From: a virus
Direction: 5' to 3' (one strand)
Length of the DNA stretch: 64,000 bases
IMG/VR virus record: IMGVR_UViG_3300029258_005404
In this document: positions 1,573 to 58,987 of the stretch, in pieces
Position numbering within the stretch: position 1 is the stretch's first letter
How the letters are laid out: the number at the start of each line of letters is the position of its first letter
Program-made: the position numbers and the translations under genes
Notes under the pieces: generated by a model
Told to the model about the DNA's origin: nothing
The model's database searches: none
What the model saw: only the letters and a program-made list of their open reading frames with translations

Positions 1573-1620
1573 TATTGAAAATAGTGGTATTGTAGAAGTA
1601 TAATTTCTCAAACATAAAAA

Positions 1621-1692: not shown

Positions 1693-2907
1693 ATGGCCAA
1701 AGTTAAAAAAGCTAATACTGGCCTTAACAGAACGGTTGTATTTGAAGTCAGTGTTGCTAATAATAATATTAAAAAACAAGTCATGGCGTCTATAGATAAA
1801 TATAGAGCAGTGGCACGAAAGATGTATTCATCGGTTGCGATGGCAGCAACTGCAGGAGCAACAATCGAAGTAAAAAATGGTGATGTCAGGGTTAAACCTT
1901 ATACTCAAAATTCAAAAGATATATTGTCAAAAGCATATAATGTGTCTGGAAAAGCTCAATTTTATGAATTAAGAAATTTCGTATTAAAAGATCATGCTAA
2001 TACATGGCAATCTGTAATATGGGATTCTTGCAGACTTGCAGTGGCTGGGACATGGAATCATGCTGATCCCGAATTTTCTAAAGGTGAAAAGAAGGTTGGA
2101 CGTGGCTGGTTATCACTCCAAGGCGCAAGAGCTTTTGGATTTTTCAATCGTTGTGGTATAGGTTTACCAAATACAAAATCTATACAATTTGGTTCAAAAA
2201 GTATGACGATGAAATGGGACAAGGAAATTGATGATGTAACATTTTTCGTTGACAGTAAGCTTCCCGGGAATACATTCTGGAAATTTAAGAACATAAGAGA
2301 TGGTGTATGGGAAAGGGGTACATGTTACATTGGGTGGAAGTATAAAAATATCGGTGGTGGTAAAAAAGTAAAAACACTTTATATAACAATGACCTATAAA
2401 CTTCCAGAAAATTATTTCAATGAGGAATCAGGTGAAGGTGTTATGATTGTTGAGTTTACAGATGATCCTGAAAACGGAATCGTCATGTATTCTGATGATA
2501 AGTTCCATTATTCCGACAAAATAAGTGTGTATGAGGCTATAGCATGGAATAAGCAACTCAATGTTGTAAAGGATTACTACAAAAAACAAAGAGCATCAGT
2601 TGGTGGTAGAGATAAGCAGTGGGGTCTCAACCAAAGTCTCATGGTTATTAGTAACAAAAGTGAAAATTTGACCAAAAGGAGAATTAACGGCAAAAAGCAT
2701 CGGAATCATATATGGGCCAACAGAATAGTGGCGAGAGTTAGACAATGGGGTATGGGTGTTGTTGTACTCAAAGATTTTCCTGACGGCCTATTAATTGATC
2801 AGGAATGGTCTATGTTTGAGCTTAAAGAAATATTGAAGTACAAACTTAGAGAAATTGGGTGTGAGTTGAAAACCTATAATACCCCAAAAGAAGAAGAAGC
2901 TGCTTAG
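1693..2907 (+). CDS. TnpB/Cas12f-like protein, predicted nuclease-dead and C-terminally truncated, CRISPR-associated
   Basis: AAGGAGG SD; RTVVFEV (WED-like), HRNHIWANRIVARVRQWGMGVVVLKDF and WSMFELKEILKYKLREIG align by eye to TnpB H..SR.IV..A......IV.EDL and W.F..L...LEYKA...G; RuvC-I region VMIVEFT, RuvC-II E replaced by K; ends before the Zn finger; array directly downstream. Confidence 0.75.
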   Translation: MAKVKKANTGLNRTVVFEVSVANNNIKKQVMASIDKYRAVARKMYSSVAMAATAGATIEVKNGDVRVKPYTQNSKDILSKAYNVSGKAQFYELRNFVLKDHANTWQSVIWDSCRLAVAGTWNHADPEFSKGEKKVGRGWLSLQGARAFGFFNRCGIGLPNTKSIQFGSKSMTMKWDKEIDDVTFFVDSKLPGNTFWKFKNIRDGVWERGTCYIGWKYKNIGGGKKVKTLYITMTYKLPENYFNEESGEGVMIVEFTDDPENGIVMYSDDKFHYSDKISVYEAIAWNKQLNVVKDYYKKQRASVGGRDKQWGLNQSLMVISNKSENLTKRRINGKKHRNHIWANRIVARVRQWGMGVVVLKDFPDGLLIDQEWSMFELKEILKYKLREIGCELKTYNTPKEEEAA

Positions 2908-2918
2908 GAATCTAAATA

Positions 2919-3080
2919 GCGCACGGGAGAAATTAAAAATATAGGCGCTATGGAAATTGTGTTATACTAGGCCCTAAAAAAAATATCAGAGTAATTTTTT
3001 CATACGAGTGAGGGAAATTGATTAGGCTACAGCGCCATTCTAAAAGATTTCTGAACTTATTTGTACATAAGGAAAGCTGA
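2919..3080 (+). repeat. Decayed CRISPR repeat relics (up to 4)
   Basis: Relics ending at 2960, 3021 and 3080 are in 59-61-nt register with the array; 2993-3021 matches 17/29; mismatches mostly C>T/G>A; a fourth at 2919-2935 is out of register. Confidence 0.7.
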
Positions 3081-3112
3081 GTGGTGAGATTTTGGATGTT
3101 GTATCAATTATT

Positions 3113-3504
3113 GTTTCTTCCGCGCGCGCGAGGGAAACTGGGATTTGCATTTAATTTCAACTACCTGCGCAAGTATGCTCCGCGCGCGCGGGGGAAACTG
3201 GATATTCGGCCGGGAGAGGGCGAAACAGCTGTAGTATGCTCCGCGCGCGCGAGGGAAACTGGGTTACTTCGTACCTCTATTCCATCATATCCTAGTATTC
3301 TCCGCGCGCGCGATGGAAACTGGGGAAATTTCCAATCATACTGGCGTGACCATAGTATTCTCCGCGCGCGCGAGGAAAACTGGGTTTCTTTTATATACAA
3401 AAGGGTGCAATATTGTATTCTCCGCGCGCGCGAGGGAAACTGGCCCCCCAGCATTTGAACTTGCCGTTATCGTTCGTTTCTTTCGCGCGCGCGAGGGAAA
3501 CTGG
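3113..3504 (+). CRISPR. CRISPR array: 7 x 29-nt repeats (consensus GTATTCTCCGCGCGCGCGAGGGAAACTGG), 6 unique spacers of 31-32 nt
   Basis: Repeats start at 3113, 3173, 3234, 3295, 3355, 3415, 3476; resemble type I-E repeats; plus orientation inferred, not proven. Confidence 0.97.
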
Positions 3505-3544: not shown

Positions 3545-3661
3545 AATAGTAAGGTGAACACCCTTGCATTTCTTTACAAGTTACAACTGAGGCTACAGTT
3601 TGTCTCGTGGATAGTAGAGTGCTATCTAATGTTCCGATGGAACACCCTCGCGCGCCTTTTT
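3545..3661 (+). ncRNA. Candidate tracrRNA/scaffold RNA with two anti-repeat segments
   Basis: CAGTTTGTCTCGTG (3596-3609) and CCCTCGCGCGC (3645-3655) complementary to the repeat 3' half; hairpins 3610-3626 and 3631-3643; T5 at 3657-3661. Confidence 0.55.
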
Positions 3662-3684: not shown

Positions 3685-3909
3685 ATGACTAAATTAAAAC
3701 CGAAAATATGTCCACACTGCGGGGTATTATTTACCCCCGCAGTGCCTGGACAAAAATATCACAGTCCAAGATGTCGGAAAAATGATTATAGTTCCAGAAA
3801 ACAATATTTTCCACGCTTCGGTAATGATGCAAAAATGAGACATGTCTTCAGAACAGAGAAAAACGTTATAACAAAATACTCAAAGGAGGTAGAATTTGCC
3901 AAAAAGTAA
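3685..3909 (+). CDS. Small Zn-ribbon protein
   Basis: CPHCG...F....PGQKYHSPRC motif; AAAGGA SD. Confidence 0.6.
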   Translation: MTKLKPKICPHCGVLFTPAVPGQKYHSPRCRKNDYSSRKQYFPRFGNDAKMRHVFRTEKNVITKYSKEVEFAKK

Positions 3910-3910
3910 A

Positions 3911-4138
3911 ATGGAGGAATTCCGTGAAAATGGAAAAAAAATACAGGAAGGATGTATTGCTGAAATGGAAAACCTTCGAAAGTCGTGGATAGATTATAAA
4001 GCTAATAATGAGACACATGGTGACGCCATGCTCCTCATACGCCAATCCAGAGCGCATGCATACAATGCGTCAGCGGCTGTCCGTGAAAGGGTAATAGAGA
4101 TGGGTCTCCATGTGGGTAGCGGCTATTACCATCCTTAA
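3911..4138 (+). CDS. Hypothetical protein
   Basis: ORF abutting the upstream stop; ATG 3911 preferred to track start 3896. Confidence 0.55.
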   Translation: MEEFRENGKKIQEGCIAEMENLRKSWIDYKANNETHGDAMLLIRQSRAHAYNASAAVRERVIEMGLHVGSGYYHP

Positions 4139-5874: not shown

Positions 5875-5957
5875 GGCAGGGTGATGCAGTGTTTAGACGT
5901 TCACGCCAACGATATGGTTCCGTGATTGCGGAGGTTCAAATCCTTCCCCTGCTACCA
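5875..5957 (+). tRNA. tRNA-like RNA with non-canonical, expanded anticodon arm
   Basis: Acceptor GGCAGGG/CCCTGCT, T-arm GGAGG-TTCAAAT-CCTTC, 3' ACCA; anticodon stem TCACG/CGTGA encloses 15 nt; D-arm imperfect. Confidence 0.65.
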
Positions 5958-5961
5958 TAAA

Positions 5962-6188
5962 TTAATGAGAACAATGTTCTCATTAACCCAACGTCGCAGC
6001 CCCTGACGGTCAGGTCCGGTAAAAGCCCGGTTAAATCGGGGAGTGGTTAGCGTAAGCGCCACCTCGCGTCTTAATGACGGGGTCTTCGAGCAGAGCCTGG
6101 CAATAAATTATGGTGTGGGATAACGCTGATATTTCCCGAGAATGAGCGATAGTGATGGGGTGCTCAAATATCAGCGGGCTTCCCCACT
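5962..6188. ncRNA. Structured GC-rich RNA region between tRNA genes
   Basis: Perfect 11-bp stems 5962-5972/5976-5986 and 6124-6134/6166-6176 plus several short hairpins; no ORF. Confidence 0.45.
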
Positions 6189-6193
6189 ACAAT

Positions 6194-6268
6194 GCGCCTG
6201 TAGCTCAGTGTTAGAGCAGTGACCTCTAAAATCACTGGTCGGTGGTTAGAATCCACCCAGGCGCTCCA
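6194..6268 (+). tRNA. tRNA with CUA anticodon (amber suppressor-type)
   Basis: GCGCCTG-TA-GCTC-AGTGTTA-GAGC-A-GTGAC-CTCTAAA-ATCAC-TGGTC-GGTGG-TTAGAAT-CCACC-CAGGCGC-T-CCA; C31.A39 mismatch. Confidence 0.85.
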
Positions 6269-6349
6269 AATTATGAGGGTTGGTATACAACTATATTACC
6301 TGCATCCTCGATCAATTCATCGCAAATACTCTTAAAAGGAAATCTTCAA

Positions 6350-49545: not shown

Positions 49546-49742
49546 TTTAAACTCCTGAAATGTAGAAAGCCAGGTTTAGAACTTTTTTTCTTTTTTTTGT
49601 TTTTATATTTTTCGTTGTATTTTTCTTTTATACTTTTAATATAATTAGTTGTGCGCATTATAGCAGATGGCTTGGGAAGTTTAAGCCCGAGCTTCTCAAG
49701 CTCATCTGCAAAAGCGTTATTGTATATACTATTAAAATCCAT
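49533..49742 (-). CDS. Small Lys-rich hypothetical protein
   Basis: Overlaps the stop of the giant gene; Y.NAFADELEKLG. Confidence 0.5.
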   Translation of the reverse strand: MDFNSIYNNAFADELEKLGLKLPKPSAIMRTTNYIKSIKEKYNEKYKNKKKKKSSKPGFLHFRSLKWPF

Positions 49743-52700
49743 TATGATCGCGTTCTACCTGCAGCAGACCCAGAAATAACCATAACGTCAGCATTGTCAT
49801 CATAATTTCTATAAGTATATACTGAACCGGCTCGATTGATATTTCCTCCACAATAAGCAAGTATTTGCCTCATAGCAACTGAAAATGTTGCAGTTCCGTC
49901 AATTGTCATACCAAGTATTTCAGATGTGACATTATTAATTTCTGCTGCATCAATGTCTTTTCCAGTGCCGTTTCCTCTCATTATAAATCCAGCTTTATCG
50001 CCGGCCTGAGATTGAATATTAAGACCATATCCATCAGAAGATCCACCGATAACCTCGATACCGCTTCCTACCACACCACCTTCGAATCTCATTCCAGCAC
50101 CAGCATTAAAACCCTGTACATGAATACCATTAAATGAACCACCACCAGCAACTTCAGCATGGAATGCATGTCCACCAACAGCTTGAACACTTATACCAGC
50201 TCCAGAATTTGACTCAATACGAAGTCCGTTATAAGTACCACCACTACCGCCTTCTATAAGGGCTCCATTCCCGGCAGACGCAAATACTTTAATAGCAGGA
50301 ATTCCTGCTCCTGATGTGCCAATATCAAGGCCTATACCATTATTACCATAACATGCAAGGCCACCACCGTTTGCGAGAGATTGTATTTCGACAGCATAAT
50401 CCCCGTTAGCGTTTTGAGATTTGGCAAATAAGGCTCTTCCAAGAACAGAATCTAATCTAACTGCGTCGCCTGATGTTGATCCGCCTAGAACACTTAATCC
50501 AACACCGGTTGAACCTGCTTCAACAGTAATTCCATTTCCTATTCCATTTCCTTGGATAACAAGCCCAGTAGCATCAGTTCCTCCGGATATCAACATTCCA
50601 CCATCAAGGGATACAGCATATCCAACAGATGTGACACCTATTCCAGTTCCAAGAGTTGTGACTTTAATTCCACTTGAACCGGAGCCACCCATTGCTGTTA
50701 CATTAATACCATTATTGTTATTTGCGCCAACAGCAATGTCAATACCATGTCCGTCAGTAGTCGATATATCAATACCATTTCCAACTGCAGCAGCTATTTC
50801 AAGTGCATGCCCTGTATCACCGCCACCGACAAATAATCCTGCGCCATTCCCGGCGCCTGTCAGATTAATAGCATCGCCATTAGTACCGGCAACAGCCTGA
50901 ATAGCATGGGTTGTATCAGAGGTGGCAATTATAGCTGCGCCGCCGTCATTGTATATATTGAGTTGTTTTAGATTAAGCGTTGCATTATTACCTGAAGTAA
51001 GCTCATCATCAATTGATACCAGGTTAGCATTGATAACACCTTCAGGAGCCTCTTCAAGAACGAGGGTTGTCCTACTATAATGAAGTGCAACAGAACCCTC
51101 TTCACATGCGAAATCATACATGAATTGTGCTTCATTCTCTGTATTCACTATCTCCATGTAACAGAAGAATATTCCTTTAGCCTCCCTCTCAAGCTCTTTA
51201 TATCCGGAAAATTTAACTGAATTGTCCAAAGCGTTTGAAAGAGCAAACTCTTTATAGAGAAGAGCGTTCTTATCAGTGCCGTTGGCAGTTTCAAGATCGA
51301 TTGAGAACTCAGGCATACCGACACGATACGTCTTACCTGTACCTGTGAAAATATCAGCATCAAGAGTAAGCTCATCTTCACCATTAACAACCGTGACATT
51401 TGCTTCAGTTAAATCGGTGTCGTTATATACAACATCACCAATCTGAACACCGTTCGTCTGGAATGTTGCCAAGGTATCATAAAGCTTGTTCGTTCCAGTT
51501 GAAGTATTCGTACCTGTTTCTTTTTCATTTAAATCAGGATCTTCCATATTACCAGCAGAATCATAGAAATGTACTTGAAGTTTGTATATATTTGATCCTG
51601 CCACAGGAATCAGGCAGTAAGAAGGTATAGTTGCTACAAATCGAGTATTGTTTTGAATTGAATCAACCGAACTTTGTCTTGCGACGCCGTTTCCGGAATC
51701 GTAAGCATTAAGAGCATCATCGCATCCACCCTCGATATCGATAGCAGAAATTGCCGGCAGTATTGCATCGATTTCGTCAGCATCAATATCTTTACCAGTC
51801 GTTCCTTTAACACAAGAAAAGCCGTGGCCGGAACCATTACCCTGAACAAGCAATCCATTCTGATTCGGACCTGCCTGAATAAATGCACCAGCAAGTCCTC
51901 TCAATGAATAATTGCCAGGATCAGCAATAAGTGTTAATGCGTCACCACTTTCACCAGCAGCTACCTGTACACCACCATCCATCTGAATTGCTCGTTTAGT
52001 TCCTCCAGGGCCAACATATATTCCATAACCGTCAGTTGTGGAAACATCAATACCCATGCCAGAAGTTGAGCCGCCAACAATTTCAACACCGTTTCCAGTA
52101 GCACCACCCTCAACCTTTAATCCAGAATTTGCTCCGTTACCTTTAAGCTCTAAAGCAATGCCACTCGGAATAGCCTCAAGTTTAGCTGCACCAGAACCAC
52201 CTTGAATGTACAATCCTAATTGACCGGGGCCGCCTGTGACATTAAGAGCTGGATGTGACGGAGAACCTTGTATATAAGCACCATAGCCAGTAATACCAGG
52301 AACTAATCTAAGCCCTGATTCTGTTCCAGAGCCCCAAAGGCGTAGTCCATCATTGTTGCCACCAGCCTGCGAAATGATTCCGTGACCATCTGTGGCTGAT
52401 ATATTAATACCATTTCCTGATGTAGAACCTCCAACAACTTCAAGACCATTACCTGTCGCACCACCTTTAGAATAAATACCAGCATAAGCTCCTTCTCCAA
52501 GAGCCTCTATACCTGGACCACCGTATCCTTCAGCCTTAAACCCGGCGCCAGAAGCAGGTGGACCAGCCGAAGCGGTAAGGGCATAAATGCCATTAGTTTC
52601 ACCCTCTGATTTTAATCCAATCGCCTTACCCTTTGTATAAATACCGATGTTACCGGCAGTAGCAGCCGCATTAATGTTCACCCCGTTACCATTGACAGTA

Positions 52701-55700
52701 TTTATACTTATACCATGACCAGAGGTAGGACCACCGACTATTTCGATACCGGCACCTGTAGAATCAGAGTTAAAATAAGCTCCGGCACCAGAATTACCAC
52801 CAACTGACTTAATACCGTTACCGTCTGTGGCGGAAATATTTATACCGTTACCTGAAGTAGAGCCACCAACAATATTTATTCCGTTACCGGTAGCGCCGCC
52901 TTCAAACTTAGCACCTGAACCAGAACCATCACCCTTAGCGTAGAAACCGTGATAACCAGAGCCAACAGCAATAGCCTCAATACCATGGCCAGATGGCGCT
53001 GCAACAGCCTCTGCTTTAATACCACTTCCGGAAGAATCTCCACCAACTGCGTGAAAACCAGGACCTGTTGTGCCACCTTTTGAACGGATGCCAGCGCCAG
53101 TTCCGTCACCTTGTGCATAAATACCACAATAGCCAGAGCCAACACCTATTGCTTCAATACCATGGCCAGACGGTGCCGCAACAGCTTCAGCCTTGATGCC
53201 ACTTCCAGAAGAGTTTCCTCCAACTGCATGAAAACCAGGACCTGTAGAGCCTCCCTTTGCATAAATGCCGGCAAAAGATCCTTCTCCCTCGGCCTCTATA
53301 CCGGGGCCACCATTACCAGTTGCCTTAAAGCCAGCGCCAGATGGCGGAATAACAGCATAAGAACGAGCCCAAATACCATTGGTTTCACCCTGAGCTTGAA
53401 TACCAATCGTTTTTCCCTCAGTATAAATACCAATATTCCCTGCAGAACTATTGGCAATTATATTCATTCCATTTCCATCAGTTGTTGAAATGTCTATGCC
53501 ATGACCAGATGTAGAGCCACCTTTTATTTCAATTGCCTTGCCGGTACTATTTGAATCTATTTTAACAGCAGGGATAGAACCTGTATTTCTACTGTTTATA
53601 TACAAAGAGCCACCATTGTCCGATGCCCCATCAAGTTTTAATGCATATCCATCGCTATTACACGCAAGAATCATGGCAGTTCCGCCAGCACCACCGTTAC
53701 CAGCACTAACATAAATACCAGCGCCTTGTGAATTTACACTAATGCCAATACCAGAGCTACCGCCAGCAGTAATAGAGACGCCTTGCCCATTTGTGGTAGT
53801 AATATCTATACCTTTTCCGGAAGTTGAACCACCTGCTACTTCAATCCCATGGCCAGTAGCACCACCGGCTATCTCTATACCTGCGCCCGTGCCATTACCA
53901 CTTATCTTTATTGCGGATTGATTGGTACCACCAAATATTCCTATTCCAGCACCAGAGCCACCAAGGCAGCTAATGTTTATAGCATTGTAGGCTCCATTTC
54001 CAAATATAGACAAACCACTTCCGCTTTGAGTTGGATGATTGGAAAGATGTACAGCATCGCCACCAGAAGACGAGCCATACACTTTAATACCAACTTTACT
54101 TGTACCTCCCGGGGTAACCAAAACACCAACACCGTTAGTAGTAGAAATATCTATACCTTCTCCGGAAGTCGAACCACCTGCCACATCGATTCCATTACCA
54201 GTAATACCACCCTGCACATCAATTCCGGCTCCAGCACCGTTACCTCTTACAAGAATTCCTGGTGCATCAGTATCACTATTCTGGATATTAAGCTGTTTCA
54301 GATTAAGCGTCGCGTTATTACCGTTTGTAGCCTGACCGTCGATTGATACAACATTTGCATCCACAGCTCCTGAGCCCTGATTATCTCTAATTGCTTCTTG
54401 AGAATCAGTGGTTCTGTCATAAGAACCGGCATCACTTGTTTTACCAGCAATTGCGGTAAGCATCTCTGTGATTGATGTTCCATCTCCAAGATCCACACCT
54501 GATCCGAGTTGCGCAACAATAGCATCAATTTCGTCATCTTTATCGGACTGATCGCTTGAGCCCATAATATAATTAGTTGGTAATTTTGATACGATAGTGT
54601 CGACATTGGTATCAATTGTGTCAATTTTAGTTTCATTAGCATCAATATTATCATTGATATCTTTATAAATAGAACCGGACACTGCACCTGTCCCTGAAAC
54701 ATCACGCTCTTTTAACGCCTCTGCAATAATATCTTTATTAGTCGTATTGTCAGCAAGTGTTGTTGTTCCTGGTGTTGCAGCAAGAACATTTGTACTACGT
54801 GAATAATTAAGAAGAGTACTTGATTCTTCAAGTTTGAATGTGGCTGTCCACTGATCCTCGCTTTCAGTATTTGGAATCTTATAATAAGTTTCATAAACAC
54901 CAGTGCTTATTTTTACCATCTTCCACATATTTGCATCTATTACACCTGCGGTTGCAGGGGTTGTGCCACCCGCATCATCGAAGAAGGCATCTTTATCACC
55001 ACCGGAAACATTCTCATAAAGAATGTCGATTTCATTATTATCCGGATCTTCCATATTACCATCAGAATCATAGAAGTGCGCTGTAATCTTATACATTGTA
55101 TTGCCAGCAGCCGGTATAATCATATACGTTGGAACAGTAGCGACAAATTTTGTATTATTCTGAATACCATTTACACTCGTTTGAACACTGTCAATCTGAT
55201 CAGAAAGTGTCTCAAGCGTATCACCATCAGCCCCAGTTCTTGCAACGGCAGTTGAACCTGTATCTGCTGAAGTAAGCGGGTATGCAGTGGTTTCATCGAA
55301 TTTAGAAGCTGTGATTGCATCATCATTTAGATTAACAGCGGGGTGATTTGCATATGCTCCAACAACAAAAGCACCAGTCGCCTCATCGAGCTGAATATCA
55401 CCATCAGCATTAGCTGTACCAGCAAGGTAGCTCTTAGAAGGCAATTTAGCTTCAATATTATTAACACCAGTGTCAATATCGGTAAGTGCTCCTGAATTTG
55501 GAAGATTATCAGTAACAGCTTTAATAGCATTAATCTCATCATCCTTGTCTGTCTGAACACTTGATCCCATGATATAATTTGTCGGTAACTTAGCTTCAAT
55601 ATTGTTCACACCAGTATCAATATCAGTAAGCGCTCCAGCGTTTGGTAAAGCATCTGTCACAGTCTGAATATCATCAAGATGGGTATCAATCGAACCGGCA

Positions 55701-58700
55701 GCAGGTGCCCCGCCAGTTGGAGCAAGTTTCATTGCATCTCTGACCTGTTGAGCAGTAAGACCACCTGCAGCCTGATTGTCTCTGAGAGCCTCAAGCGAAT
55801 CGGTCGTATTATCAAAAGTATCCCAGTCCGCTGTTGCACTCTTGGATGCTATCTTTGCAAATACAGAGTTATCTGTCACATCAGTTCCAGTAACAGCAAC
55901 TGATAGCAGGTGGTCAAGTCCTATATCGCTCAATGCAGTATCAACCTCTGCATTGACATCGAGCTTCGCCTGAGCACCTAATGCATTAACGGTGCCAATA
56001 GTTACCGCGCTCTGGTCTGCATTCAAATCGACATCTGGATGATTCGCAAATGCTCCAGAAGGCAATGCACCAGTTGCCTCATTCAATTCAATATCACCGT
56101 CAGAATTATTTGTTCCGGCAAGATATGACTTACTCGGTAATTTCGCTTCGATGTTGTTCACACCAGTATCAATGTTGTTAATATCTGAATTCGCGGTAAT
56201 AGCAGCATCGCACGCAGTTTGCACATCAGCAGAAGACAGGTCATTCAATCCTTCAACTGTTGACTTAATCGAATCAATTTCATCATCCTTATCACTCTGG
56301 ACACTTGAACCCATGATGTAATTCGTTGGAAGTTTTGCCTCAATATTATTAACACCAGTATCTATATCAGTGAGAGCACCGCTATTCGGAAGATTATCTG
56401 TGACAGCTTTAATATCATCAACCACACTATCTACAGTATCTATCTTCGTCTCATTCGCATCGATGTTATCCATAATATCTTTATACACAGAGCCGGAAAC
56501 AGCTCCTGTTCCAGACACATCTCTTTCCTTCATTGCCTCTGCAATAATATCGGCATTTGTCGTATTATCAGCCAATGTTACAGAACCAGGATTCTCTTCA
56601 ACGATATTTGTAGTACGTGCATACTGAAGCAATGCAGAAGACTCTTCAAGCTTAAATGATGCTATCCACTGTTCCTGTGTCTCAGTACTTGGAAGCTTAT
56701 AATACGTCTCATAAACACCTGTACTAATCTTCACCATCTTCCACATATTCGAGTCTATTGTACCAGCGGTCGCTGGAGTAGAACCTGACGCATCATCAAA
56801 AAACGCATCTTTATCAGTCCCATCAACACCCTCATAGAGAATATCAATTTCATTATTATCTGGGTCTTCCATATTACCATCAGTATCATAAAAATGCGCT
56901 GTTATCTTATACATCTTAGTACCGGTATCAGGTATCAACATGTTTGTTGGAACAGTTGCAACAAATCTCGTATTGTTCTGAATACCATCAACACTGGACT
57001 GTACACCGTCAATCTGGTCTGACAAGGTTTCAAGAGTGTCTCCATCTGCACCGGTCCTCGCAACAGCAGTCGAACCAGTATCGGCAGATGTAAGTGGATA
57101 AGCTGTAGTCTCATCAAACTTAGAAGCTGTTATTGCATCATCATTTAATCCAACATTCGGGTGATTTGCAAATGCACCAGAAGGCAACGCTCCAGTTGCA
57201 TCGTTCAATTCAATATCACCATCAGAATTCGCTGTTCCTGTAAGATATGATTTGCTCGGAAGTTTCGCTTCAATATTATTTACACCAGTATCAATATCAG
57301 TCAGGGCACCTGAGTTAGGAAGGTTATCAGTTACTGCTTTAATTGCATCAATTTCATCATCTTTATCTGTCTGAACTGAGGAGCCCATGATATAATTAGT
57401 CGGGAGTTTTGCTTCGATATTATTTACACCGGTATCTATATTATCAATTTCATTAGCATCAATATCTTTACCAGTTATTCCACCAATGAGACTTAATCCG
57501 TGACCGCTGCCAGTTCCATTAAGCTGCATTCCATCACAATTAGACCCTGCACCTGCATAAATTCCATGTCCTGCGGTTGATGTGATACGTAGCCCATCAT
57601 CTTGTGCAGCTATTTCAAATCCATAACTTCCAGTTGTAGATACATAAATTCCTTTTTGATTCGATGCTATTGAAATCCCATTGCCACCCGTTGCTGATAC
57701 ATTAATACCAATCCCGGCAGCATTGGTTATATCTACACCAACGCCGGATGTTGTATCAATACTGACAGCATCCCCAGAAGTATTTCCGCCTTTAATCCAT
57801 ACGCCACGGCCAGTTTCTCCGCCTTGTACTTCAATACCGGCCCCAGTTCCACTGCCCCCTATCAATACACCAGGATAATTTCCAGTATTGCAATATATTT
57901 CAACGCCAGCCTGAGATGATTCAATGTAAACACCTTGGCCGCTTGTTGCAGCTACTGAAATTCCATGGCCATCTGTGGTTGATACATTAATACCTTTACC
58001 AGATGTTGAACCACCAATTACATCCATTCCGTTTCCAGTTGGTCCGCCTTGGGCTTTTAATCCAGCATTTGAACCAACTCCAAAAGCATAGATTCCATTT
58101 CCATTATTCGGAGCCTGAGCGAACAATCCATGGCCAGATGAGTTTCCACCAATCAATGCTGCTCCATGTCCAGCTGAACCACCGAGGCCATATATACCAG
58201 ATCCGCCACCATTCCCCTCTGCGCGTATTCCAGAATCTCCACCGCCTGCAGCTTTTGTATGAATACCATGGCCGCCAGCAGCACCACCAGAGGAATATAT
58301 TCCATTACCAGAAGCTCCACCTTCTATATACGCACCATTTCCACTTGTTGATGTTATTTTTAATCCATCACCTGAAGTTCCGCCCCCATAAACACGTATG
58401 CCCTCTCCGGTGGCCCCGGCTTGGACTTTTATACCTGCTCCAGCCCCATTTGCTGTTATATCAATAGCATTGACACCAGTTCCTGTAATGTCAATATCAA
58501 TTCCAGGGCCTGCTGAGTTTTGAATATCAATAGCACCACCGGCATCGGCCGCATTTATTGCAAGTTTAGTAAGAGTCATCTGTGCACCGGTTCCATCCAT
58601 GATAGCTTCAAGATTATCCGCAGCCGTAGAATCATCACTGATTTGCTTCATATTAGACACTGCTGGTCTTGTCCAAATAATAACCTCCTGGTCATCCCAC

Positions 58701-58987
58701 TCTTTTGGACTCGTCTGGTCTATAAACTGGACAATAATCGGATACTTTGTATCATCTGGATTCAATTCAGTTGCTGTAAAGGTAACAAGAAGCTGGGCTG
58801 TCGCTCCAGATATAGCAGAAGGAAGTGTACCTATGTTTGACACATTCCAACTTCCGCCTGTATGCCTTATAATCTTAACGTCTCCAGCAGCAAGTGTCGG
58901 ATTCGATTTGTAACTTGGTCGGTTCGCAGCATCAACCAATGGAATTACAGCATACGATGCAACATTTTGTTCTCTTAATATTTCCAT
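49742..58987 (-). CDS. Giant (3081 aa) Gly-rich repetitive virion/fibre protein
   Basis: AAGGAG SD; three Gly-rich beta-helix-like blocks and internal duplications; located in the structural operon. Confidence 0.8.
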   Translation of the reverse strand: MEILREQNVASYAVIPLVDAANRPSYKSNPTLAAGDVKIIRHTGGSWNVSNIGTLPSAISGATAQLLVTFTATELNPDDTKYPIIVQFIDQTSPKEWDDQEVIIWTRPAVSNMKQISDDSTAADNLEAIMDGTGAQMTLTKLAINAADAGGAIDIQNSAGPGIDIDITGTGVNAIDITANGAGAGIKVQAGATGEGIRVYGGGTSGDGLKITSTSGNGAYIEGGASGNGIYSSGGAAGGHGIHTKAAGGGDSGIRAEGNGGGSGIYGLGGSAGHGAALIGGNSSGHGLFAQAPNNGNGIYAFGVGSNAGLKAQGGPTGNGMDVIGGSTSGKGINVSTTDGHGISVAATSGQGVYIESSQAGVEIYCNTGNYPGVLIGGSGTGAGIEVQGGETGRGVWIKGGNTSGDAVSIDTTSGVGVDITNAAGIGINVSATGGNGISIASNQKGIYVSTTGSYGFEIAAQDDGLRITSTAGHGIYAGAGSNCDGMQLNGTGSGHGLSLIGGITGKDIDANEIDNIDTGVNNIEAKLPTNYIMGSSVQTDKDDEIDAIKAVTDNLPNSGALTDIDTGVNNIEAKLPSKSYLTGTANSDGDIELNDATGALPSGAFANHPNVGLNDDAITASKFDETTAYPLTSADTGSTAVARTGADGDTLETLSDQIDGVQSSVDGIQNNTRFVATVPTNMLIPDTGTKMYKITAHFYDTDGNMEDPDNNEIDILYEGVDGTDKDAFFDDASGSTPATAGTIDSNMWKMVKISTGVYETYYKLPSTETQEQWIASFKLEESSALLQYARTTNIVEENPGSVTLADNTTNADIIAEAMKERDVSGTGAVSGSVYKDIMDNIDANETKIDTVDSVVDDIKAVTDNLPNSGALTDIDTGVNNIEAKLPTNYIMGSSVQSDKDDEIDSIKSTVEGLNDLSSADVQTACDAAITANSDINNIDTGVNNIEAKLPSKSYLAGTNNSDGDIELNEATGALPSGAFANHPDVDLNADQSAVTIGTVNALGAQAKLDVNAEVDTALSDIGLDHLLSVAVTGTDVTDNSVFAKIASKSATADWDTFDNTTDSLEALRDNQAAGGLTAQQVRDAMKLAPTGGAPAAGSIDTHLDDIQTVTDALPNAGALTDIDTGVNNIEAKLPTNYIMGSSVQTDKDDEINAIKAVTDNLPNSGALTDIDTGVNNIEAKLPSKSYLAGTANADGDIQLDEATGAFVVGAYANHPAVNLNDDAITASKFDETTAYPLTSADTGSTAVARTGADGDTLETLSDQIDSVQTSVNGIQNNTKFVATVPTYMIIPAAGNTMYKITAHFYDSDGNMEDPDNNEIDILYENVSGGDKDAFFDDAGGTTPATAGVIDANMWKMVKISTGVYETYYKIPNTESEDQWTATFKLEESSTLLNYSRSTNVLAATPGTTTLADNTTNKDIIAEALKERDVSGTGAVSGSIYKDINDNIDANETKIDTIDTNVDTIVSKLPTNYIMGSSDQSDKDDEIDAIVAQLGSGVDLGDGTSITEMLTAIAGKTSDAGSYDRTTDSQEAIRDNQGSGAVDANVVSIDGQATNGNNATLNLKQLNIQNSDTDAPGILVRGNGAGAGIDVQGGITGNGIDVAGGSTSGEGIDISTTNGVGVLVTPGGTSKVGIKVYGSSSGGDAVHLSNHPTQSGSGLSIFGNGAYNAINISCLGGSGAGIGIFGGTNQSAIKISGNGTGAGIEIAGGATGHGIEVAGGSTSGKGIDITTTNGQGVSITAGGSSGIGISVNSQGAGIYVSAGNGGAGGTAMILACNSDGYALKLDGASDNGGSLYINSRNTGSIPAVKIDSNSTGKAIEIKGGSTSGHGIDISTTDGNGMNIIANSSAGNIGIYTEGKTIGIQAQGETNGIWARSYAVIPPSGAGFKATGNGGPGIEAEGEGSFAGIYAKGGSTGPGFHAVGGNSSGSGIKAEAVAAPSGHGIEAIGVGSGYCGIYAQGDGTGAGIRSKGGTTGPGFHAVGGDSSGSGIKAEAVAAPSGHGIEAIAVGSGYHGFYAKGDGSGSGAKFEGGATGNGINIVGGSTSGNGINISATDGNGIKSVGGNSGAGAYFNSDSTGAGIEIVGGPTSGHGISINTVNGNGVNINAAATAGNIGIYTKGKAIGLKSEGETNGIYALTASAGPPASGAGFKAEGYGGPGIEALGEGAYAGIYSKGGATGNGLEVVGGSTSGNGINISATDGHGIISQAGGNNDGLRLWGSGTESGLRLVPGITGYGAYIQGSPSHPALNVTGGPGQLGLYIQGGSGAAKLEAIPSGIALELKGNGANSGLKVEGGATGNGVEIVGGSTSGMGIDVSTTDGYGIYVGPGGTKRAIQMDGGVQVAAGESGDALTLIADPGNYSLRGLAGAFIQAGPNQNGLLVQGNGSGHGFSCVKGTTGKDIDADEIDAILPAISAIDIEGGCDDALNAYDSGNGVARQSSVDSIQNNTRFVATIPSYCLIPVAGSNIYKLQVHFYDSAGNMEDPDLNEKETGTNTSTGTNKLYDTLATFQTNGVQIGDVVYNDTDLTEANVTVVNGEDELTLDADIFTGTGKTYRVGMPEFSIDLETANGTDKNALLYKEFALSNALDNSVKFSGYKELEREAKGIFFCYMEIVNTENEAQFMYDFACEEGSVALHYSRTTLVLEEAPEGVINANLVSIDDELTSGNNATLNLKQLNIYNDGGAAIIATSDTTHAIQAVAGTNGDAINLTGAGNGAGLFVGGGDTGHALEIAAAVGNGIDISTTDGHGIDIAVGANNNNGINVTAMGGSGSSGIKVTTLGTGIGVTSVGYAVSLDGGMLISGGTDATGLVIQGNGIGNGITVEAGSTGVGLSVLGGSTSGDAVRLDSVLGRALFAKSQNANGDYAVEIQSLANGGGLACYGNNGIGLDIGTSGAGIPAIKVFASAGNGALIEGGSGGTYNGLRIESNSGAGISVQAVGGHAFHAEVAGGGSFNGIHVQGFNAGAGMRFEGGVVGSGIEVIGGSSDGYGLNIQSQAGDKAGFIMRGNGTGKDIDAAEINNVTSEILGMTIDGTATFSVAMRQILAYCGGNINRAGSVYTYRNYDDNADVMVISGSAAGRTRS
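54610..57440 (-). repeat. Internal ~1-kb duplication in the giant gene (about 56430-57440 and 54610-55625)
   Basis: Near-identical ~340-aa protein blocks with many synonymous differences. Confidence 0.85.

What the first reader, a model, noticed from the sequence alone, without database searches (positions are those of the whole stretch)
3545..3661. Anti-repeat (tracrRNA-like) structured RNA right after the array
Seen: 3596-3609 (CAGTTTGTCTCGTG) pairs with repeat nt 15-28 by 11 Watson-Crick pairs, 2 G.U and 1 mismatch if both are plus-strand RNAs; on the minus strand the G.U pairs become A.C mismatches. 3645-3655 is a perfect 11-nt complement of repeat nt 12-22. Two hairpins (3610-3626, 3631-3643) and a T5 run lie between/after them. 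Repeat variation is concentrated in the first 8 nt, outside the paired part. Established: Cas12f-type effectors use a tracrRNA with repeat:anti-repeat duplexes. Inference: this is the scaffold RNA of the system.
Basis: partly seen in the sequence, partly recalled or inferred. Interest (0 to 1): 0.75.

Follow-up and report, generated by a model that had tools for sequence, protein, structure and literature searches.

The report
TracrRNA of a phage dead-Cas12f system
The stretch after the CRISPR array very probably encodes a small helper RNA (tracrRNA) that docks onto the array's repeats at two places and loads the guides into a phage-encoded, shortened Cas12f protein that has lost its DNA-cutting residues; the RNA design is the known Cas12f one, found here in an untested phage family.

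Summary

Window 3585-3661 (+) has three hairpins, an 11-nt perfect complement of repeat nt 12-22 (3645-3655) and a T5 run. That 11-mer is the only non-palindromic complement of the repeat of 10 nt or more in the 186-kb phage genome.

Both contacts co-vary with their own repeat:
- In 13 elements, 76 of 78 loop pairs are kept, and 0 of 20,000 permutations reach this.
- A covariance model then found three unseen elements, again with matching loops.
- Loci with two arrays carry two elements, each matched to its own repeat variant.

This short-plus-long repeat:anti-repeat layout is the published Cas12f1/TnpB design.

The adjacent 404-aa protein has a Cas12f fold. It has K360 in place of the RuvC-II Glu and lacks the zinc finger and RuvC-III.

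Two spacers resemble the phage's own primase-helicase gene, differing mostly at codon third positions. This suggests silencing of rival phages.

Expression and binding are untested. The scan had already noted this locus.

The parts
1575..1604 (+). Sigma-70-like promoter match (TTGAAA, 18 nt, TATAAT) upstream of the effector gene. It may be the promoter of the whole unit.
   Evidence: 11 of 12 consensus positions. No other plus-strand promoter-like site lies between it and 3661 except one inside the gene (2249). This is a consensus match only.
1693..2907 (+). Gene for a 404-aa C-terminally truncated Cas12f-like protein (P0001) lacking RuvC-II Glu, the zinc finger and RuvC-III.
   Evidence: No Pfam, NCBIfam or PDB hit with the single sequence. 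The family profile hits OsCas12f 9nzq at E 5e-26 and dCas12f 9n9c at 7e-16. The AF2 model has pLDDT 92.9. Foldseek gives AsCas12f 8j12 at 9e-14 and dCas12f 9n9c at 2e-13. E254 aligns with the RuvC-I Asp and K360 with the RuvC-II Glu. The protein ends 44 residues later.
3113..3504 (+). CRISPR array: 7 repeats of 29 nt with spacers of 31-32 nt.
3585..3661 (+). Core of the tracrRNA-like element (covariance-model match).
   Evidence: Model R1 scores 58.6 bits, E 8e-16. It is the only copy in the window.
3589..3606 (+). Hairpin 0: stem 3589-3593 with 3602-3606, 8-nt loop 3594-3601.
   Evidence: Fold. This helix is 97.5% paired across 16 elements, and 4 of its 5 pairs change on both sides.
3596..3601 (+). 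Short anti-repeat (CAGTTT) in the loop of hairpin 0. It pairs with repeat nt 23-28 (AAACTG), directly 5' of G29 and the spacer.
   Evidence: Loop and repeat pairs seen across loci: CAGTTT/AAACTG, CCATTT/AAATGG, CCATTA/TAATGG, CCATCA/TGATGG, CCATCT/GGATGG, CCCTGT/GCAGGG. 76 of 78 cognate pairs are kept, and 0 of 20,000 permutations reach this.
3610..3626 (+). Hairpin 1.
   Evidence: The helix is 93.5% paired, and 6 of its 7 pairs change on both sides.
3631..3643 (+). Hairpin 2.
   Evidence: A hairpin is present at this place in all 13 elements folded singly. Its loop is 3 nt in the window's clade and about 6 nt in most of the others. Compensatory changes are seen between the two copies in L001.
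3645..3655 (+). Long anti-repeat (11 nt). It pairs with repeat nt 12-22.
   Evidence: Perfect complement, unique in the genome. The duplex is -25.8 kcal/mol and is the pairing chosen in the co-fold. The summed cognate energies are reached by 0 of 20,000 permutations. Double compensatory changes occur between the two arrays of L013.
3657..3661 (+). T5 run; probable 3' end of the RNA.
   Evidence: A T run follows the long anti-repeat in all five copies of the window's clade and in L209. It was not called as a canonical terminator.
3685..3909 (+). 74-aa zinc-ribbon-like ORF that travels with the system (associated; role unknown).
   Evidence: An equivalent CxxC ORF follows the array in L001, L013, L063 and L164. 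There is no family match.
3896..4138 (+). 80-aa ORF that follows the zinc-ribbon ORF in the related loci too (associated; role unknown).

Best explanation
Window 3585-3661 (plus strand) encodes a compact tracrRNA of about 77 nt or somewhat longer.

How it pairs. Each crRNA carries repeat nt 12-29 in front of its spacer. The tracrRNA's 3' tail (3645-3655) forms an 11-bp duplex with repeat nt 12-22. The loop of its first hairpin (3596-3601) forms a 6-bp helix with repeat nt 23-28, immediately next to the guide. Seventeen consecutive repeat bases are therefore held by two separate tracrRNA segments, with hairpins 1 and 2 between them. This is the guide / pseudoknot-type short duplex / long duplex design of Cas12f1 sgRNAs and TnpB omega-RNAs.

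What it does. The assembled dual RNA is bound by the adjacent 404-aa Cas12f-like protein. That protein keeps the Cas12f fold but lacks the RuvC-II Glu, the zinc finger and RuvC-III. The complex should therefore bind target DNA without cutting it, and most plausibly blocks transcription or replication of related rival phages.

Shown here: the sequences, folds, covariation, protein fold and missing catalytic parts.

Inferred: expression, the RNA ends, protein binding, absence of cleavage, and the biological target. Co-transcription from the promoter-like site at 1575 with termination at the T run is a guess (about 50%).
For: Conserved structure. Three hairpins and two anti-repeat segments are conserved in 16 elements from 10 loci. 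87% of cells are paired, 13 of 17 pairs change on both sides, and 0 of 500 shuffles reach the covariation score. Slid controls fall to 33-49% paired.

Covariation with the repeat. The loop hexamer and the tail each match their own repeat better than any permuted assignment (0 of 20,000 each). Loci with two arrays (L010, L013, L063, L208) carry two elements, each matching its own repeat variant. A model built on 13 elements found three unseen ones beside homologous genes, again with complementary loops.

Strand. G.U pairs (for example 10 of 16 at one pair of hairpin 1) would be C.A on the other strand. All model hits are on the gene's strand.

This window. The co-fold keeps the hairpins and pairs the tail with the repeat, gaining -18.2 kcal/mol over the monomers. 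The 11-mer is unique in the genome.

Protein. Cas12f fold and lost catalytic parts.

Published design. Cas12f1 duplexes have a long repeat/anti-repeat stem plus a pseudoknot with a 5-7 bp short stem (PMC11246509). In TnpB the pseudoknot next to the guide corresponds to Cas12f repeat:anti-repeat 1 (PMC10097598).
Against: - No transcript data exist. The 5' end is undefined, and no promoter-like site was found just upstream.
- The T run is 13 nt from hairpin 2, so it is not a canonical intrinsic terminator.
- From this locus alone the complementarity is only moderately significant (23 of 2000 shuffles).
- The related elements are not independent samples, and the model-made alignment leans towards the structure.
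- Hairpin 2 is only 69% paired in that alignment, because loop length differs between clades.
- In most distant relatives the element sits directly in front of the first repeat and could act in cis, so action in trans is inferred from its position here, after the array.
- A 6-nt pairing inside an 8-nt hairpin loop is sterically demanding, and the 3D pseudoknot was not modelled.
Confidence: 0.85

Rival explanations
1. The element is only the scaffold part of a cis-acting natural single guide. It works only when fused in the same transcript to a neighbouring repeat-spacer, as an omega-RNA does, and not as a diffusible tracrRNA.
For: In L009, L010, L013, L063 and L164 the element lies directly 5' of the first repeat. 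A 12-16 bp stem joins its 5' flank to the linker and the first bases of that repeat. Hoffmann et al. call conserved structures upstream of such arrays 'putative gRNAs' (PMC13472631, Extended Data Fig. 1). In the window, array and element may be one transcript.
Against: In the window the element follows the array and ends in a T run, with no repeat or guide 3' of it. In L001, L003, L008 and L209 a T run and about 100 nt separate it from the array. Arrays hold 7-12 repeats that all keep the paired bases, which only makes sense if every repeat can pair with the one element.
Confidence: 0.07
2. It is a transcription terminator or array-end structure, or a decayed inverted repeat copy, with no role in the ribonucleoprotein.
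For: A GC-rich segment is followed by a T run at the end of the array unit. Array ends often carry degenerate repeats.
Against: The terminator scan did not call it. Decay or a simple terminator would not keep three hairpins by compensatory change, nor keep two separate segments complementary to the cognate repeat across loci with 29-48% protein identity. In relatives it lies upstream of arrays.
Confidence: 0.03
3. It is a decoy or antisense RNA aimed at the host's type I-E-like crRNAs. Acting as an RNA anti-CRISPR, it would sequester host repeats rather than serve the phage protein.
For: An RNA complementary to them could in principle also pair with host crRNAs.
Against: The element co-varies with the phage's own repeat variants, including two variants within one locus. 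It is always beside the Cas12f-like gene. Its layout is that of Cas12f scaffolds (PMC11246509). No host repeat was examined here.
Confidence: 0.03

Closest known systems
Cas12f1 (type V-F1) tracrRNA:crRNA, e.g. AsCas12f and Un1Cas12f1 sgRNAs (PDB 8j12, 7c7l; PMC11246509)
   Same: It is a trans-encoded RNA beside the effector gene and array. A long repeat:anti-repeat duplex is formed by its 3' part. A short 5-7 bp repeat:anti-repeat helix of pseudoknot type lies next to the guide. Hairpins lie between the two. The effector has the same fold.
   Different: The conserved core is much shorter: about 77 nt, against the roughly 200-nt RNA bound by Cas12f1 (PMC12255294). The long duplex is only 11 bp. 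The repeats have type I-E geometry. The partner protein has no RuvC-II Glu, zinc finger or RuvC-III. Expression and binding are untested.
ISDra2 TnpB omega-RNA (PMC10097598)
   Same: It has the same guide / pseudoknot / stem order, with the bases just 5' of the guide pairing with a distant upstream segment. In distant relatives of this locus the scaffold is fused in cis to the first repeat, like a natural single guide.
   Different: Here the scaffold and the guide-bearing RNA are separate and the guides come from an array. There is no transposon end and no TnpA.
dCas12f-sigmaE RNA-guided transcription systems of Bacteroidota (PMC13472631; PDB 9n9c)
   Same: Both have a nuclease-dead, C-terminally truncated Cas12f of similar size (365 aa against 404 aa) and the same fold.
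   Different: Those systems use one chimeric 85-105-nt guide RNA with a fixed 14-16-nt guide. The authors found no tracrRNA, and a sigmaE gene is adjacent. Here there is an array, a separate anti-repeat RNA, no sigma-factor family on the genes within about 5 kb on either side of the effector gene, and a phage genome. The profile match covers only the C-terminal half. A sample of 401 Bacteroidota genomes gave only such partial matches.
CRISPR-associated dCas12f cluster (PMC13472631, Extended Data Fig. 1) and phage 'dCas14' (PMC7162821)
   Same: Dead Cas12f/Cas14 next to CRISPR arrays, with conserved structured RNA upstream of the arrays, and a phage-borne dead Cas14 proposed to repress rather than cut. 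Both are mentioned only in passing.
   Different: Neither paper describes a tracrRNA or its pairing scheme. I could not test whether their proteins belong to this 143-representative family.

Membership tests
Cas12f-type tracrRNA | Encoded next to a Cas12f-family gene and a CRISPR array | tested here: met
   Gene 1693-2907, array 3113-3504, element 3585-3661. The same neighbourhood is found in 9 other loci.
Cas12f-type tracrRNA | Long anti-repeat complementary to the repeat | tested here: met
   11 of 11 bp with repeat nt 12-22. It is unique in the genome and co-varies with the cognate repeats.
Cas12f-type tracrRNA | Short (5-7 bp) anti-repeat pairing with the repeat bases next to the guide (pseudoknot) | tested here: met
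   6 bp between 3596-3601 and repeat nt 23-28. Six different co-varying loop and repeat pairs are seen. The three-dimensional pseudoknot itself was not testable.
Cas12f-type tracrRNA | Expressed as a discrete RNA that binds the effector and is needed for guide function | not testable with these tools
   No transcriptome or biochemical data were available.
Cas12f nuclease (type V-F effector) | Cas12f fold (WED, REC, RuvC core) | tested here: met
   AF2 pLDDT 92.9. Foldseek probability is 1.00 to AsCas12f, OsCas12f and dCas12f. Profile E is 5e-26 to 9nzq.
Cas12f nuclease (type V-F effector) | Intact RuvC Asp-Glu-Asp triad and zinc-finger (TNB) domain | tested here: not met
   E254 aligns with the RuvC-I Asp and K360 with the RuvC-II Glu (N or L in the two close homologues). 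The protein ends 44 residues after K360, with no TNB or RuvC-III. No acidic residue at these positions is among the near-invariant columns of 58 relatives. Three of the 58 relatives weakly match PF07282.
dCas12f-sigmaE system | Adjacent sigmaE gene and a single chimeric guide RNA without tracrRNA | tested here: not met
   No sigma-factor family is recorded on the called genes within about 5 kb on either side of the effector gene. An array and a separate anti-repeat RNA are present.
TldR (TnpB-like nuclease-dead repressor) | Omega-RNA-type single guide, no CRISPR array | tested here: not met
   A 7-repeat array and a separate scaffold are present.
Intrinsic terminator | GC-rich hairpin immediately followed by a U run | tested here: not met
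   The site was not called by the scan. 13 nt separate hairpin 2 from the T run. A terminator-like helix would need the tail to pair with an upstream repeat.

The most novel reading that the evidence does not exclude
This phage family preserves, side by side, the stages of 'guide-RNA splitting' proposed for type V evolution. In some members the scaffold is fused in cis to the first repeat of an array. In others, including this window, it is a free-standing terminated tracrRNA placed before or after the array. All serve a truncated dead Cas12f that reads arrays of type I-E geometry. Those arrays are probably filled by a host type I-E adaptation machine (AAG flank) and used to silence replication genes of rival phages. 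If true, this is a natural hybrid of two CRISPR types that acts by binding alone.
Probability: 0.3. Interest if true: 0.75.

Novelty: new member of a known kind. Interest (0 to 1): 0.5.

Why it matters
It gives a concrete, testable RNA design for a very small (404 aa plus about 77 nt) natural DNA-binding CRISPR effector: the two pairing sites, the handle of repeat nt 12-29, and a candidate 5'-TTAAG flank.

Published work on nuclease-dead Cas12f found no tracrRNA in the sigmaE-linked systems and proposed that the ancestral single guide split and later re-fused. This family shows both the split and the fused arrangement in close relatives. That order of events can therefore be studied on real sequences.

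It also adds a likely case of phage-against-phage CRISPR silencing without DNA cleavage.

Tried and rejected
- Rfam: no family matched near its threshold.
- Minus-strand RNA: rejected. The fold is weaker, the G.U pairs would be lost, and all model hits lie on the gene's strand.
The 8 bases beyond the hexamer pair at 7 of 8 positions here but at only 4-6 of 8 in the other elements that were read in register (for several rows the automatic loop assignment was off). These bases are needed for hairpin 0 and compete with the long duplex.
- Second, pre-array copy in the window: none down to E 10. Only short look-alike fragments lie at 3005-3032.
- The search for related loci with broad alignments failed for lack of conserved peptide stretches.
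- The 17-mer loop-region pattern in metagenome and genome collections gave about 180 loci. Only L063 and L164 carry the gene and arrays; the rest are chance matches.
- Spacer targets in 50,697 phage records: none of use.
- Genome-wide sliding duplex scan: uninformative, because it is dominated by the array itself.
- Zinc-ribbon ORF as a split-off Cas12f zinc finger: no support.
- Cas1, Cas6e-type and RNase III families in the phage genome: none found. The Cas6e control found only one control genome, so that search is weak.

Full report
**Setting**

The window is bases 8442-72441 of a complete 186,450-bp phage genome with direct terminal repeats. GC content is 36%. Phage helicase and tail-related families are present.

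On the plus strand lie, in order:
- a strong sigma-70-like promoter match at 1575-1604;
- a 404-aa ORF at 1693-2907;
- a seven-repeat array at 3113-3504, with 29-nt repeats and 31-32-nt spacers;
- the finding at 3545-3661;
- two small ORFs.

**Observation**

- 3645-3655 is a perfect 11-nt complement of repeat nt 12-22. Apart from the CG palindrome inside the repeats, it is the only complement of the repeat of 10 nt or more in the whole genome.
- 3596-3609 pairs with repeat nt 15-28 at 13 of 14 positions.
- The hairpins 3610-3626 and 3631-3643 and the T5 run are there.

Taken alone the case is moderate. The fold z-score is -1.9, and 23 of 2000 shuffles of the element pair as well with the repeat. 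The two claimed pairings also overlap on repeat nt 15-22, so they cannot both form.

**The neighbouring protein**

P0001 has no Pfam, NCBIfam or PDB sequence match on its own. It does have 143 representatives at 50% identity in the large protein library.

A profile of 58 of these hits solved Cas12f proteins: OsCas12f 9nzq at E 5e-26, and the nuclease-deactivated Cas12f 9n9c at 7e-16. The AlphaFold model is confident (pLDDT 92.9). Its best Foldseek matches are AsCas12f, dCas12f and OsCas12f, at E about 1e-13.

In the profile alignment the RuvC-I Asp corresponds to E254 and the RuvC-II Glu to K360 (N or L in the two close homologues). The protein stops 44 residues later, before any zinc finger or RuvC-III. 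Neither acidic position is among the near-invariant columns of the family. It is therefore a truncated Cas12f relative that lacks the residues needed to cut DNA.

**Comparative evidence for the RNA**

I collected homologous loci by exact-protein look-up and by a DNA pattern. Their proteins are 34-48% identical to P0001.

All that retain flanking DNA have arrays of the same 60-61-nt period and one or two copies of the same element.

The element has three hairpins.

On a model-based alignment of 16 elements:
- 87% of cells are paired;
- 13 of 17 pairs show changes on both sides;
- no shuffle of 500 reaches the covariation score;
- sliding the partners drops pairing to 33-49%.

Hairpin 2 scores lower there (69%) only because its loop is about 3 nt longer in most of the other clade. 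A hairpin is present at that place in each of the 13 elements folded singly.

**Pairing with the repeat**

Two segments track the repeat.

1. Loop bases 3-8 are complementary to repeat nt 23-28, the six bases before the final G and the spacer. The pairs seen are:
   - CAGTTT with AAACTG (window);
   - CCATTT with AAATGG;
   - CCATTA with TAATGG;
   - CCATCA with TGATGG;
   - CCATCT with GGATGG;
   - CCCTGT with GCAGGG.

   
2. The tail after hairpin 2 is complementary to the middle of the repeat, with compensatory double changes. For example, the two arrays of L013 differ by a C-G to G-C swap.

Over 13 elements, 76 of 78 loop pairs are kept with the cognate repeat. Neither this count nor the summed tail energies is reached by any of 20,000 permutations of element and repeat assignments.

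These sequences are related, so the permutation count overstates independence. Two further observations carry weight on their own. First, four loci hold two arrays with different repeat ends, each preceded by an element with the matching loop. Second, a covariance model built on the 13 elements found three elements it had never seen, beside homologous genes, and they follow the same rule.

**Model**

Repeat nt 12-22 pair with 3645-3655 and nt 23-28 pair with 3596-3601. Seventeen consecutive repeat bases are thus held by two tracrRNA segments that flank hairpins 1 and 2.

The co-fold of the element with a repeat-spacer keeps all three hairpins and forms the 11-bp duplex, 18.2 kcal/mol better than the monomers. 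The program cannot draw the loop contact, because it is a pseudoknot.

This is the published Cas12f1 layout: a long repeat/anti-repeat stem plus a pseudoknot with a 5-7 bp short stem (PMC11246509). It is also the TnpB layout, where the pseudoknot beside the guide equals Cas12f repeat:anti-repeat 1 (PMC10097598).

Its complementarity to the repeat is 7 of 8 here but 4-6 of 8 in the other elements that were read in register.

The plus strand is supported by frequent G.U pairs, by the T run, and by all model hits lying on the gene's strand.

**Cis or trans**

In the more distant loci the element sits directly before the first repeat. A 12-16 bp stem joins its 5' flank to the linker and the start of that repeat, so the first guide may be a natural single guide.

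In the window's clade the element ends in a T run. It is separated from the array (L001, L003, L008) or placed after it (window, and the second copy in L001). In the window nothing guide-like follows it. I therefore read it as acting in trans on all seven repeats.

The window has a single copy. The flanking stem is weak here. Where the RNA starts is unknown.

**What the system may do**

- Spacers 2 and 4 match the phage's own primase (Toprim) / MCM-like helicase gene (genome 107865-111347) at 27 of 32 and 23 of 31 positions.
- The mismatches fall mostly on codon third positions.
- Both sites are preceded by TTAAG.
- The 208-kb relative's gene matches no better.
- This is what spacers taken from a related, competing phage would look like.
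- The phage has no Cas1, no detectable Cas6e-type protein and no RNase III.
- Together with the dead effector, this suggests silencing of rival phages by binding. This is inference.

**Relation to the literature**

Hoffmann et al. (PMC13472631) characterise sigmaE-linked dCas12f, which uses a single chimeric guide, and state that they found no tracrRNA. They mention in passing a separate cluster of dead Cas12f near CRISPR arrays with conserved 'putative gRNAs' upstream.

Al-Shayeb et al. (PMC7162821) mention a phage 'dCas14'. Neither paper gives a tracrRNA or its pairing.

A sample of 401 Bacteroidota genomes held only partial, distant matches to this family. Several loci here are clearly phage. 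One contig filed under a Thermoplasmatales genome bin carries both this system and a 48%-identical primase-helicase.

**Verdict**

The finding is real and its interpretation holds. It is a Cas12f-type tracrRNA with a bipartite anti-repeat, belonging to an untested phage-borne dead-Cas12f family. The RNA design is known; the family, the small size and the mixed cis/trans arrangements are new details.

Earlier notes of this scan on the same genome reached the same reading of the protein and the array.

Noticed in passing
window 3202-3233 and 3324-3354; genome G000 108819 and 108159 (locus L205): Spacers 2 and 4 resemble the phage's own Toprim/MCM-like primase-helicase gene, at 27 of 32 and 23 of 31 positions. 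The mismatches fall mostly at codon third positions, and both sites follow 5'-TTAAG. The spacers probably came from a related rival phage. AAG is the type I-E acquisition motif.
   Followed up: partly
window 3685-3909 and 3896-4138; L001 7361-7805; L013 3375-3780; L063 about 5930-6311; L164 3010-3397 (-): A small CxxC zinc-ribbon ORF and a second small ORF follow the (first) array in every locus with enough sequence. In L013 and L063 they sit between two arrays. They look like conserved accessory genes of unknown role. No family match was found.
   Followed up: partly
L010 1160-1579; L013 2828-4486; L063 5442-6990; L208 2774-4478: Several relatives carry two arrays with different repeat ends. 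Each is preceded by its own scaffold element whose loop matches that array's repeat end.
   Followed up: yes
L001 6320-6440, L003 1365-1480, L008 4285-4400, L063 5421-5530 and 6321-6430, L209 3413-3521: Long stems (10-21 bp) join the 5' flank of the element to sequence after it. These may be processing sites. In one clade the 3' strand includes the first bases of the first repeat. In another the 5' strand includes the last codons and the stop codon of the effector gene. The equivalent in the window is weak.
   Followed up: partly
window 2908-3112: The gene-to-array spacer has no scaffold copy, although relatives carry one there. It holds a repeat-like fragment (3005-3020) and an 8-mer shared with hairpin 0 (3025-3032). 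These may be remnants of a lost copy.
   Followed up: partly
L164 / L197 / L206 (genome handle G001, contig 2): A 168-kb contig filed in a Thermoplasmatales archaeon genome bin carries this dead-Cas12f system and a 48%-identical primase-helicase. It is probably a related large phage that was binned wrongly.
   Followed up: partly
window 49742-58987 (-): A very long ORF of 3081 aa lies next to tail-related genes. It was not examined.
   Followed up: no
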